Of a DNA stretch of 5,369 nucleotides, positions 3,001 to 5,369 are shown one piece after another; position 1 is the first letter of the stretch; every line of letters starts with the position of its first letter. The position numbers were made by a program. Origin of the DNA: a virus (taxonomy: Duplodnaviria > Heunggongvirae > Uroviricota > Caudoviricetes); the IMG/VR virus record IMGVR_UViG_2619619126_000002, positions 1-5,369 of that record. One strand, written 5' to 3'.

Positions 3001-5369
3001 AATGGTGATTGCATATATCCTCCAAATATTGCGTGTTATGCATGTTATTTCACGCAAGTATTTTGCGCAAGTTGATTTGCTTATCACGCAATAAAGAAAT
3101 GTAATAAACGCATGAACATAGGAAACCGAGTCAGACAACTTCGCCAAGCGAAGAACATGAAAATCGCCGATCTCGCTGAAGCAATAGGAGTAGATGCGGC
3201 GAACATCTCGCGCTTAGAAACGGGTAAGCAGAAACAATTTACCGAACAAACACTGAGTAATATTGCCAAGAGCTTAGGTGTTGATATTGCTGATCTCTTT
3301 ACCTCTGCCCTCAAAAGTAATACTGTATATAAAAACAGTAATAATGAGGATGTTGCGCAGGTGAAGGATGTGTTCCGTATTGAAATGCTGGATATCAGTG
3401 CCAGTGCGGGAAATGGCCTTATCCAGGGCGGTGATGTCATTGATGTGATTCATGCCATCGAATACAGAACTGATAATGCTGTATCAATGTTCGGCGGACG
3501 ACCAGCCAATCACATCAAAGTTATCAACGTTCGTGGGGACAGTATGTGTCCAACCATTGAGCCAGGAGATCTCATCTTCGTCGATGTCAGCATCAATCAG
3601 TTTGATGGTGATGGTATATATGTCTTTGGTTTTGATGACAAAATATACGTTAAAAGACTTCAAATGATTCCTGACAAACTGCTGGTGATTTCTGATAACC
3701 AGATTTACCGTGAATGGGGAATTACTAGCGAAAACGAACACCGATTCATGGTCTTTGGAAAGGTCTTAATCAGTCAGTCGCAAACCCTTAAGAGACATAA
3801 TTAACCTCAATATCCCATCCATCGGCCACCGAAAGGTGGCTTTTTATCACCTATAATTTTGCATATCTCGCAAAATACTACTTGCATATCTCGCAATTTA
3901 ATTTTAACTTTTGTTCCAGACCAACTACAGGATTACAACAAAATCGGGTTGCAACACGGTGCATGGTGCATGTGTCGTAAGCGGTCAGTAAATGTCAAAA
4001 ACGAACAGGCAGGACGCCCACGAAGTAGCCGCCTCGGGCATATGAAGTCCAGGATGATTCGTTAGCAACAAAAAAGCGCCCTACAGGACGCTTAGCTCTT
4101 TAACAATCTGGTCCCCATCAACAAGTAACTGATAACTTGAGGAGGTGTGAAATGCACAAAACAGAACCAAAAATCGTCGCGCCTGGCTACACAGATGAGG
4201 AAATTTATGAGTGGATGACAAAGAAGCTGGCAGCTATAAACCAGCTTCGTGAAGTGCTGTCTTATCGACAGGAAACAATAGACTCCTTAAAAAAACTGGA
4301 TCAGGAAATCACGGTTTTATCACAGGATGTTACTTTAGATATTGTGCAGACAAATTAGGATCCCATTCATTTTCGTCAAAATCATCAAAGTGATGAATTT
4401 GTGATCTCCAGTCTCGATAATCTAAAAATTTCTGGGCGGTTACACTTATTTTATCAAGCGTGAGTTCATCCTGAATTGAAAGAAGAAGTTCATCAAATTT
4501 CATCTCATTAATCTGTTTTGGCATCCAGTGATGCTTCATCAGAATAAGGTGAACCAGAGCCTTTTTCCCATTCAACTGATTATAGGGTGTGCCGAATTTC
4601 TTCCGGTGCTCATTTAAGACAAGGTCCAGAAGAGTAAGTAATGTTGCCCTTGATTCAACTTTGCTTATTTCGACTGATGACACTACCCCACTGATTTCAA
4701 TGCCCCGATACTTTCCAACATTTTCACAGTGGGATTTGTACAGCGTATAGATATTACCGGACATTTCTTTTCCTTTTGCGTTGTTGGGGATAACCAGATT
4801 AACCGAATCCTTGTTGTTGGGGAATAACCAGGTCCACCTCGCCTGATGTGGCTAAAAGCAGGCACATAACAGCTAAGTATTTTCAACCAGAGAGAATCCT
4901 TAGCGTTGTGGTGAATGCGGCTCAGCGCACGCGGGTTAAGGTTGAGGCTGACAGTCGACCTTCTGTGGATACCCACCCGCCTGGTGTGCAACCTTCGCCA
5001 GGCACCGGGAGGCACCCGGCACCACAACTTTATGCTGTGTGTAGTCCTGGCGGTACCAGCTTGTACCCTTGCTTCCGGCTGGTACCGTCCTTTTTACAAA
5101 ACAGAGAAGAGCATCACCGGACGACGGGCTCATAACCCAATCCATCCGGGCGGCAGTCACCGCAGGTGTTCTTCTCTGTTTTGTGGAGAAACTAACCGAC
5201 CTTGCAGGGTCGATATGATGAGGAGCAGCAAAATGGCTAGCGAACGCAGTACTGATGTGCAGGCATTTATCGGGGAGCTGGACGGCGGCGTATTTGAAAC
5301 CAAAATCGGCGCAGTTCTCAGTGAAGTCGCTTCCGGTGTGATGAACACGAAAACCAAAGGTAAGGTCTC

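What the first reader, a model, noticed from the sequence alone, without database searches (positions are those of the whole stretch)
4070..4358. Read-through of the 144-aa gene would be fully antisense to the 68-aa gene
The only intrinsic terminator downstream of the 144-aa gene on the minus strand is at 4070-4092, beyond the whole 68-aa ORF and its RBS. The minus-strand transcript would therefore carry about 240 nt of 3' UTR antisense to the 68-aa mRNA, with no minus-strand ORF in that stretch. This is a built-in cis-antisense arrangement, so the two genes are likely mutually regulated.
Basis: seen in the sequence. Interest (0 to 1): 0.55.

Follow-up and report, generated by a model that had tools for sequence, protein, structure and literature searches.

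The report
Backwards prophage gene overlapping its partner
A prophage accessory gene sits backwards inside a lytic operon and overlaps the end of a small partner gene, an arrangement conserved in many enterobacterial phages that probably keeps lysogenic and lytic expression apart; it is a new example of a known kind of antisense wiring, not a new principle.

Summary
The sequence facts mostly hold. A strong minus-strand intrinsic terminator lies at 4093-4074, beyond the whole 68-aa gene and its ribosome-binding site. The 144-aa and 68-aa genes converge and overlap by 29 nt. It is not the only terminator candidate: a weaker hairpin at 4248-4223 lies inside the 68-aa ORF.

The window is the immunity region of an SfIV/SfII/CPS-53-like E. 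coli prophage. The 144-aa gene belongs to the ECs1072 family. It sits backwards in a cargo slot at the head of the inferred early-left operon. That slot carries at least 21 different cargoes, which share the same minus-strand terminator and upstream block. The 68-aa gene is YdfC-like and is the first ORF of the plus-strand operon.

The two families form a conserved convergent pair with overlapping 3' ends. I found it in 48 window-type loci, one intermediate locus and 90 ST64B-type loci. In the ST64B type, the ECs1072 gene's terminator lies inside the partner ORF.

Published RNA-seq shows the ST64B homologue is transcribed from its own promoter in lysogens, antisense to lytic genes.

The cis-antisense layout is therefore real and selected. 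Mutual regulation is plausible but untested, and full-length antisense coverage is uncertain. Verdict: new member of a known kind, moderate interest.

The parts
4064..4093 (-). Strong intrinsic terminator: stem-loop 4093-4074 and T-run 4073-4064. It is the shared terminator of the minus-strand cargo slot and a backstop for the 144-aa gene transcript.
   Evidence: In 38 variants from 120 loci the stem, a minus-strand-only G.U pair and the T-run are conserved while loops vary. At least 21 cargo classes lie next to it.
4094..4106 (+). boxA-like sequence AGCTCTTTAACAA. In E. albertii it reads CGCTCTTTAACAA. It marks plus-strand operon transcription through this region.
   Evidence: One match where 0.01 is expected by chance. 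It is conserved together with the terminator in all 120 loci. The boxA consensus is quoted from my own knowledge.
4152..4358 (+). 68-aa YdfC-like gene (RBS AGGAGG 4140-4145). It is the first ORF of the inferred early-left operon and the conserved convergent partner of the 144-aa gene.
   Evidence: phrog_1744, E=6e-35. About 41% identical to YdfC of Qin-like phages. The ORF is intact in 46 of 48 loci. Substitutions seen in the alignment are mostly synonymous by my reading.
4215..4248 (-). Internal hairpin 4248-4223 with the weak U-tract UUUGUCAU. It is a candidate leaky terminator for the 144-aa transcript, inside the 68-aa ORF.
   Evidence: The stem is invariant in 48 loci and only loop positions vary. 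The E. albertii loop change lengthens the minus-strand stem.
4330..4764 (-). 144-aa ECs1072-family gene, a backwards-facing accessory ('moron') gene.
   Evidence: NF033230 at 156 bits against a cutoff of 70. phrog_5286. Intact in all 47 loci checked. AF2 model with pLDDT 87, all-alpha, with no structural relative.
4330..4358 (.). 29-nt overlap of the two coding regions at their 3' ends.
   Evidence: The divergent L045 pair has the same 29 nt, and ST64B-type pairs have 53-95 nt.
4765..4890 (-). Conserved block directly upstream of the minus-strand cargo ORF: the inferred promoter and 5' UTR of the slot. It contains direct repeats GTTGTTGGGGA(A)TAACCAG at 4780-4797 and 4813-4831 (plus-strand reading).
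   Evidence: The same block precedes at least 10 unrelated cargo ORFs. No consensus promoter was found in it.
3859..3896 (+). Two operator-like sites TTGCATATCTCGCAA (3859-3873 and 3882-3896): the inferred OL/PL of the early-left operon.
   Evidence: TTGC-N7-GCAA occurs three times where 0.17 is expected. The third copy lies in the cI-cro intergenic region at 3077-3091.
3997..4063 (+). Leader of the early-left operon, conserved across phages with different immunity regions.
   Evidence: Shared with SfV, SfIV, SfII, PhiR29_1 and E. albertii. In SfV it begins just after a TTGACA-17-ATAATG promoter (read by eye).
3824..3841 (+). cI terminator.
   Evidence: The equivalent site is annotated as a terminator in SfII and SfV.

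Best explanation
The 144-aa ECs1072-family gene is an accessory ('moron') gene expressed in the lysogen. It sits backwards in a cargo slot at the start of the prophage's repressor-controlled early-left operon. The 68-aa YdfC-like gene is its conserved convergent partner and the first ORF of that plus-strand operon.

The minus-strand mRNA of the 144-aa gene necessarily overlaps the partner's 3' end. Some transcripts may stop at the weak internal hairpin, giving a 3' end near 4215-4222. The rest run on to the slot's strong terminator, giving a 3' end near 4066-4072. That terminator also shields OL/PL and cI from antisense transcription.

In the lysogen this RNA, together with convergent polymerases, should damp any leaky plus-strand expression of the 68-aa gene and the operon behind it. 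After induction, boxA-modified plus-strand transcription runs antisense through the whole 144-aa gene and should shut it down.

Shown: the anatomy, its conservation, and lysogenic transcription of a homologue. Inferred: the PL position, the promoter of the 144-aa gene, the actual 3' ends, and any regulatory effect.
For: - Terminator and overlap.
- The terminator is strand-specific and conserved.
- Cargo slot: at least 21 cargo classes, mostly a single minus-strand ORF, lie between the same terminator and the same upstream block. PhiR29_1 shares 3997-4127 and 4780-5369 with the window but carries a different minus-strand gene.
- Conserved pair: 48 window-type loci, L045 and 90 ST64B-type loci. 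The two partner families are related (hhalign probability 88%, E=2.9e-6).
- In ST64B-type pairs a hairpin plus U-run on the ECs1072 strand lies 29-66 nt past the stop, inside the partner ORF, in 53 of 54 unique sequences. Across the six variant stems that carry wobbles, 9 G.U pairs sit on that strand against one outermost A.C mismatch (my count from the hairpin sequences).
- Plus-strand operon: operators at 3859-3896, boxA, and no plus-strand terminator from 3853 to the window end. YdfC is a promoter-proximal gene of the DicA-controlled dicBF operon (PMC5069750).
- Expression: STMMW_20121 has the exact geometry of the ST64B homologue. It is transcribed from its own promoter, antisense to lytic genes, at TPM 60-270 in 16 of 17 conditions, while the flanking holin stays below 35 (PMC7067206). 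It falls from 269 to 113 and 105 under peroxide and NO shock, when the partner rises from 108 to 148 and 258.
Against: - No transcript data exist for this window.
- No recognisable sigma-70 promoter was found for either gene.
- The strong terminator serves every cargo in the slot, so its position beyond the 68-aa gene could be incidental.
- One ECs1072 relative (L009, 55% identical) has no YdfC-like partner. YdfC genes in Qin-like phages have no ECs1072 partner.
- In E. albertii the 68-aa gene is frameshifted, and one other locus carries a truncation.
- In ST64B both genes show substantial TPM in the same cultures, so expression is not strictly exclusive at the population level.
Confidence: 0.55

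Rival explanations
1. Insulation only. The terminator at 4093-4074 exists to stop any cargo transcript from running antisense into OL/PL and cI. The antisense coverage of the 68-aa gene is a by-product of modular recombination and has no regulatory role.
For: The same terminator follows at least 21 unrelated cargoes. Recombination boundaries fall at 4063/4064 and 4833/4834. The pairing is not obligatory for either family.
Against: The convergent overlap of these two particular families recurs in 139 loci, at 20-37% protein identity and in two different operon contexts. That is hard to explain without selection on the arrangement.
Confidence: 0.25
2. Partial overlap. Most minus-strand transcripts end at the internal hairpin (3' end about 4215-4222). 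The antisense then covers only about 140 nt of the 3' part of the 68-aa gene and not its RBS, as in ST64B-type pairs.
For: The hairpin folds at -14 to -15.6 kcal/mol and its stem is invariant in 48 loci. An analogous internal terminator is present in 53 of 54 unique ST64B-type sequences. The total overlap would be similar to theirs.
Against: The U-tract is poor (UUUGUCAU) and the score is below threshold. The divergent L045 pair has no comparable hairpin, only the far terminator. The hairpin is perfectly Watson-Crick on both strands apart from one extra wobble pair, so evidence for strand specificity is thin.
Confidence: 0.35
3. Protein-level pair. The 144-aa protein is an exclusion, abortive-infection or toxic effector made in the lysogen. 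The YdfC-like protein, made first when the lytic operon fires, neutralises it. The overlap merely keeps the two genes linked.
For: The pair has co-diverged as a unit. The partner is always the first ORF behind an antiterminated promoter. The slot carries other cargoes that look like lysogenic-conversion or exclusion genes, such as membrane proteins and lipoproteins.
Against: There are no hits to PADLOC defence models, no Pfam domain and no structural relative. No interaction or toxicity data exist. L009 lacks the partner.
Confidence: 0.15
4. The 68-aa ORF is not a real gene, and 4094-4329 is simply a long 3' UTR.
For: The ORF is short and is frameshifted or truncated in 2 of 48 loci. It is unannotated in SfIV.
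Against: Strong PHROG hit. Homology to YdfC and to the sb50-type partners. It has an AGGAGG RBS, is intact in 46 of 48 loci, and its substitutions are mostly synonymous. RefSeq annotates it as WP_000549623.1.
Confidence: 0.05

Closest known systems
Lambda OOP RNA / cII, and prophage antisense RNAs such as BTP1 STnc6030 (PMC7067206)
   Same: A prophage-encoded transcript runs convergent to a lytic-pathway gene and is complementary to its 3' part. It is thought to act through duplex formation and RNase cleavage.
   Different: Here the antisense RNA is the 3' UTR of a conserved protein-coding mRNA rather than a dedicated small RNA. No effect on the target has been shown.
Moron insertion sites of lambdoid prophages with convergent transcription units (downstream of PR' in EHEC prophages, PMC4104026; accessory genes antisense to lytic genes, PMC7067206)
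   Same: A backwards-facing, independently transcribed accessory unit lies inside a lytic operon just behind an antiterminated promoter. The ST64B homologue STMMW_20121 was itself flagged in PMC7067206 as a candidate accessory or regulatory gene.
   Different: The window copy lies behind the early-left promoter rather than PR'. Neither the conserved partnership with a YdfC-like gene nor the terminator embedded in the partner ORF was described in the papers I read.
Type I toxin-antitoxin loci with 3'-overlapping convergent transcripts (txpA/RatA, bsrG/SR4; from my own knowledge)
   Same: Prophage location, convergent transcription, and roughly 100-150 nt of 3' complementarity.
   Different: Neither product is a small hydrophobic toxin, and both partners are conserved soluble-looking proteins. 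No toxicity is known. Membership is not supported.
Excludons and overlapping 3' UTRs of convergent genes (from my own knowledge)
   Same: A long UTR of one gene covers a neighbour on the other strand. The two genes belong to opposed expression programmes.
   Different: This is a compact two-gene phage module. The opposed programmes are lysogeny against lytic growth, and that opposition is inferred.
E. coli Qin prophage ydfC in the dicBF operon (PMC5069750)
   Same: The 68-aa protein is about 41% identical to YdfC. In both cases it is a promoter-proximal ORF of the operon on the repressor side of the immunity region, and its function is unknown.
   Different: Qin-type ydfC has no ECs1072 partner. 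It is followed by dicF and dicB.

Membership tests
ECs1072 family phage-associated protein (NCBIfam NF033230) | Full-length match to the family model above the curated cutoff | tested here: met
   156.2 bits against a cutoff of 70, covering residues 4-144 and model positions 2-142. Also phrog_5286, E=4e-90.
YdfC-like small phage protein (phrog_1744) | Sequence match to the family and to YdfC proteins | tested here: met
   phrog_1744, E=6e-35, full length. tblastn gives 39-41% identity to annotated YdfC over residues 1-66. There is no Pfam hit.
Intrinsic (Rho-independent) terminator, site 4093-4074 | G+C-rich stem-loop immediately followed by a U-run on the transcribed strand | tested here: met
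   8 bp with 5 G-C pairs, a tetraloop and the tail TTTTGTTGCT. The hairpin is more stable on the minus strand in all 38 variants.
Intrinsic (Rho-independent) terminator, site 4093-4074 | Actually ends transcripts in vivo or in vitro | not testable with these tools
   No transcript 3'-end data exist for this sequence.
Intrinsic (Rho-independent) terminator, site 4248-4223 | Stem-loop followed by an adequate U-run | tested here: inconclusive
   The stem is good (-14 to -15.6 kcal/mol), but the tail has only UUU before G, and the score is -10.
Cis-antisense regulatory pair (OOP/cII type) | Both strands transcribed across the overlap | not testable with these tools
   There is only indirect support. 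In ST64B lysogens the homologous genes STMMW_20121 and STMMW_20131 both show TPM of 23-270.
Cis-antisense regulatory pair (OOP/cII type) | The antisense transcript changes expression of the sense gene | not tested
   This needs reporter or mutant experiments.
Type I or type II toxin-antitoxin / known defence system | A recognisable toxin, antitoxin or defence-protein family | tested here: not met
boxA (NusB/NusE-binding antitermination element) | Match to the consensus YGCTCTTTAACAA on the transcribed strand, downstream of a promoter | tested here: met
   12 of 13 positions at 4094-4106, where 0.01 matches are expected, and 13 of 13 in E. albertii. The consensus is from my own knowledge, and function was not tested.

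The most novel reading that the evidence does not exclude
The ECs1072-family and YdfC-like genes form a lysogeny/lysis toggle module. The larger protein would be an exclusion or abortive-infection effector made by the resting prophage. The small protein, the first product of the antiterminated lytic operon, would act as its antidote. The conserved 3' overlap, with a terminator embedded in the partner's coding sequence, would enforce reciprocal expression. That would be a defence system with built-in self-immunity for the prophage's own induction.
Probability: 0.15. Interest if true: 0.7.

Novelty: new member of a known kind. Interest (0 to 1): 0.4.

Why it matters
Prophage accessory genes are a main source of bacterial traits such as phage resistance and virulence. 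How they are kept on in the lysogen and out of the way during lytic growth is mostly unknown.

This locus offers a compact, widespread and experimentally tractable case. About 5% of complete E. coli genomes carry it, and relatives occur in Salmonella, Klebsiella, Citrobacter, Hafnia and Shimwellia. In it, an accessory gene of unknown function is hard-wired antisense to the first gene of a lytic operon.

The work also defines a cargo slot with a shared terminator and upstream block. That slot could be mined for new lysogenic-conversion or defence genes.

Tried and rejected
- Promoters. The consensus scan found no promoter for the 144-aa gene or for PL. By eye, TAATCT at 4801-4796 is invariant across slot variants, but it has no good -35. 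The promoters are left unresolved.
- ORF 3859-4065 (68 aa, arginine-rich C-terminus). I considered it as an N-like antiterminator and rejected it. In SfV the PL promoter lies inside the equivalent region, which leaves only a 7-codon ORF. It has no family hits.
- The plus-strand reading of the 4074-4093 hairpin as a terminator or boxB. Rejected: it carries a C.A mismatch in all 38 variants, folds at only -6.8 kcal/mol and has a poor U-run.
- Defence-system models: no hits.
- The search for related loci with the mixed alignment failed because it had no conserved stretch. The genome-contig scan returned nothing confirmed, so I used viral contigs instead.
- Rho-utilisation signal in the minus-strand 3' UTR: the C/G ratio is only about 1.0-1.6, which is not informative.
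- I could not find the boxA consensus sequence spelled out in the papers searched. It is quoted from my own knowledge.
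Full report
**What the window is**

The window is 99.9% identical to a chromosomal prophage region of E. coli strain 300033. It belongs to the SfIV/SfII/SfV/CPS-53 group of lambdoid phages. I call the strand of cI '+'. The order of features is:
- cro, 3014-2754 (-).
- cI, 3112-3804 (+).
- The cI terminator, 3824-3841 (+).
- The region of the finding.
- An STnc100-like stretch, followed by yfdP from 5233.

288 of 5426 complete E. coli genomes carry at least 80% of 3800-5369.

**Checking the observation**

The two ORFs, the RBS and the 29-nt overlap at their 3' ends are as described.

The minus-strand terminator at 4093-4074 is real. It has an 8-bp stem, a tetraloop and the tail TTTTGTTGCT. 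The local hairpin folds at about -11 kcal/mol on the minus strand and only -6.8 on the plus strand.

I searched IMG/VR for the 3' arm of the stem plus the adjacent sequence. This gave 120 contigs with 38 sequence variants. All of them keep the stem, including a G.U pair that becomes a C.A mismatch on the plus strand. All keep the T-run, and the loop varies freely. This is an RNA element that works on the minus strand.

The claim that it is the only terminator is too strong. The scan also lists 4248-4223, inside the 68-aa ORF and 82 nt past the 144-aa stop.
- Its stem is strong (-14 to -15.6 kcal/mol), but only UUU follows before a G.
- A d'Aubenton-Carafa-type score is -10, against +6.6 for 4093-4074 and +14.5 for the cI terminator.
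- The stem is invariant in 48 related loci, and only loop positions vary.

I treat it as a weak or leaky candidate.

**What lies on the plus strand**

- Two copies of TTGCATATCTCGCAA lie just after the cI terminator, at 3859-3873 and 3882-3896. A third TTGC-N7-GCAA site lies in the cI-cro intergenic region. That is three matches where 0.17 are expected. I infer that these are OL operators and that PL lies here.
- Positions 3997-4063 are shared by phages with different repressors. In SfV this shared stretch begins just after a TTGACA-17-ATAATG promoter that follows the cI terminator (read by eye).
- Right after the terminator hairpin, on the plus strand, is AGCTCTTTAACAA. This matches boxA at 12 of 13 positions and is a perfect match in E. 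albertii. One match is found where 0.01 is expected.
- No plus-strand terminator-like site occurs from 3853 to the end of the window.
- YdfC, to which the 68-aa protein is about 41% identical, is a promoter-proximal ORF of the DicA-controlled dicBF operon in Qin (PMC5069750).

Together these make the 68-aa gene the first ORF of a cI-repressed early-left operon that continues into yfdP, yfdQ, yfdR and on to xis. The whole 144-aa gene is embedded antisense in that operon.

**A cargo slot**

Comparison with SfV and SfII puts recombination boundaries at 4063/4064 and 4833/4834. PhiR29_1 shares 3997-4127 and 4780-5369 with the window but carries a different minus-strand gene between them.

In the IMG/VR loci, at least 21 cargo classes follow the terminator-plus-boxA module. 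Almost all are a single minus-strand ORF of roughly 100-230 aa whose stop lies 10-220 nt from the module.

At least ten unrelated cargo ORFs are preceded, within 10-20 nt, by the same minus-strand block that lies upstream of the 144-aa gene (window 4765-4890).

So the terminator and this upstream block frame a swappable expression slot on the minus strand. The terminator was not built for the 144-aa and 68-aa pair in particular.

**A conserved gene pair**

The 144-aa protein is a member of the ECs1072 family. This is a small family, with about 100 clusters at 50% identity among 1.84 billion representatives.

| Pair type | Loci | Identity to window (large / small protein) | 3' overlap |
|---|---|---|---|
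| Window type | 48 | reference | 29 nt |
| L045 (same slot) | 1 | 37% / 36% | 29 nt |
| ST64B type | 90 | 29% / 20% | 53-95 nt |

- The ST64B type includes Salmonella ST64B, Klebsiella phages, and E. coli ECs1072-type, Shimwellia and Hafnia prophages.
- There the pair sits between the Q antiterminator and the holin. The small gene faces the same way as the late operon and starts right after a strong tR'-like hairpin.
- Profile comparison relates the two small-protein families (probability 88%, E=2.9e-6).
- Exceptions exist. L009, 55% identical to the window protein, has no partner. Qin-type ydfC has no ECs1072 gene.
- In the window type the 68-aa ORF is intact in 46 of 48 loci. It is frameshifted in E. 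albertii by an extra A in an A7 run.

**Where the relatives terminate**

In 53 of 54 unique ST64B-type sequences, a hairpin plus U-run on the ECs1072 strand lies 29-66 nt past the stop, inside the partner ORF at the codons EKAALEERL.

Across ten stem variants, departures from Watson-Crick pairing are 9 G.U pairs on the ECs1072 strand and one outermost A.C mismatch. This is my count from the sequences, and the variants are not phylogenetically independent. The bias argues that the hairpin is used on ECs1072-sense RNA.

The conserved feature of the module is therefore an antisense overlap of roughly 120-160 nt with the partner's 3' part. The window's weak hairpin would give a similar length. The L045 pair has only the far terminator.

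**Experimental support from a homologue**

Owen et al. (PMC7067206) report that STMMW_20121 of prophage ST64B is transcribed in almost all conditions from its own promoter and is antisense to the lytic genes. Its coordinates and spacing to the holin, sb50 and sb49 match the ST64B ECs1072 homologue exactly.

Their Table S5 gives these values:

| Gene | Role | TPM |
|---|---|---|
| STMMW_20121 | ECs1072 homologue | 60-270 in 16 of 17 conditions |
| STMMW_20131 | convergent partner (sb50) | 23-258 |
| STMMW_20111 | holin | 0.3-33 |
| STMMW_20141 | sb49 | 1.5-7 |

Under peroxide and NO shock, which induce ST64B lytic genes, STMMW_20121 falls from 269 to 113 and 105, while the partner rises from 108 to 148 and 258. 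This is compatible with reciprocal control but does not prove it. Part of the partner signal may be a short PR'-to-tR' RNA.

A microarray study also lists ECs1072 among genes whose expression changes at growth transitions in uninduced O157 Sakai (-2.13-fold; PMC2241611).

**Most likely mechanism**

The 144-aa gene is transcribed in the lysogen from the slot's upstream block. Its RNA overlaps the 68-aa gene. It ends partly at the weak hairpin and definitively at 4093-4074. That terminator also protects OL/PL and cI from antisense transcription.

This RNA, together with converging polymerases, should suppress leaky early-left expression. After induction, Nus-modified plus-strand transcription should override and silence the 144-aa gene. 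The boxA may also protect the 874-nt untranslated plus-strand stretch (4359-5232) from Rho.

The anatomy, its conservation and the lysogenic transcription of a homologue are shown. The promoters, the real 3' ends and any regulatory effect are inferred.

**What the proteins do**

This is unknown. The 144-aa protein models confidently as an all-alpha fold (pLDDT 87). It has no relative in the PDB or BFVD, no Pfam domain and no defence-model hit. The 68-aa protein looks like a short helical, coiled-coil-like protein.

**Comparison with what is known, and novelty**

The wiring is of a known kind. Related cases are lambda OOP/cII, BTP1 STnc6030, convergent units at moron sites behind PR' (PMC4104026), overlapping 3' UTRs, and type I toxin-antitoxin loci with 3' overlap.

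What seems not to have been described in the papers I read is the conserved partnership of ECs1072-family and YdfC-like genes, and the terminator embedded in the partner's coding sequence. I file this as a new member of a known kind, of moderate interest.

Noticed in passing
window 4875-5098 (+): Match to Rfam STnc100 (RF02076), a prophage-associated sRNA family: 42.4 bits, below the gathering score of 47, E=6.5e-7. It lies in the conserved stretch between the cargo slot and yfdP. RefSeq annotates a frameshifted hypothetical CDS over about the same region (window 4908-5218).
   Followed up: partly
window 4094-4106 (+); L009 about 3581 (-): A boxA-like element sits directly before the antisense-embedded cargo on the operon strand. 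It is absent from SfV and SfII, whose cargo at this site is organised differently. L009, which has an ECs1072 gene embedded antisense in another early operon, has TGCTCTTTAAAAA on the operon strand just before it. This may protect the long untranslated operon stretch from Rho.
   Followed up: partly
window 4834-4864 and 4907-4934 (+); L006 2948-2978 and 3635-3662: Two short conserved blocks to the right of the slot also flank ydfC in Qin-like phages, in the order block, ydfC, block. The first block, CCACCTCGCCTGATGTGGCTAAAAGCAGGC, could form two interleaved stems (CCAC/GTGG and GCCTG/CAGGC), and SfV keeps both. It may be an RNA element or a recombination hotspot.
   Followed up: no
window 4780-4797 and 4813-4831: Direct repeats GTTGTTGGGGATAACCAG and GTTGTTGGGGAATAACCAG lie in the block shared upstream of many different minus-strand cargo genes. 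They may be a regulator-binding site or a promoter element. No consensus sigma-70 promoter was found there.
   Followed up: partly
window 1553-2204: The replication module is missing. Only remnants lie between ymfL and rusA: a truncated HTH_36 ORF at 1608-1859 and a DUF4222 ORF at 1849-2028. RefSeq marks two incomplete pseudogenes there. The prophage in this window is probably defective.
   Followed up: no
L008 3248-3257; L131 2750-2759: In ST64B-type pairs the palindrome TGGGATCCCA lies in the overlap and encodes Trp-Asp-Pro in both proteins, one on each strand. In the window the 68-aa gene stops just before the equivalent GGATCCCA (4350-4357).
   Followed up: no
window 3859-4065 (+): A 68-aa TTG ORF with an arginine-rich C-terminus ends exactly at the left recombination boundary, and a stop codon is kept there in SfV and SfII. 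It is probably not a gene, because in SfV the PL promoter lies inside the equivalent region.
   Followed up: yes
window 4145: The last G of the 68-aa gene's AGGAGG RBS differs in 22 of 48 related loci (E. albertii has AGGAAG there). This suggests that translation strength of the small gene varies between lineages.
   Followed up: no
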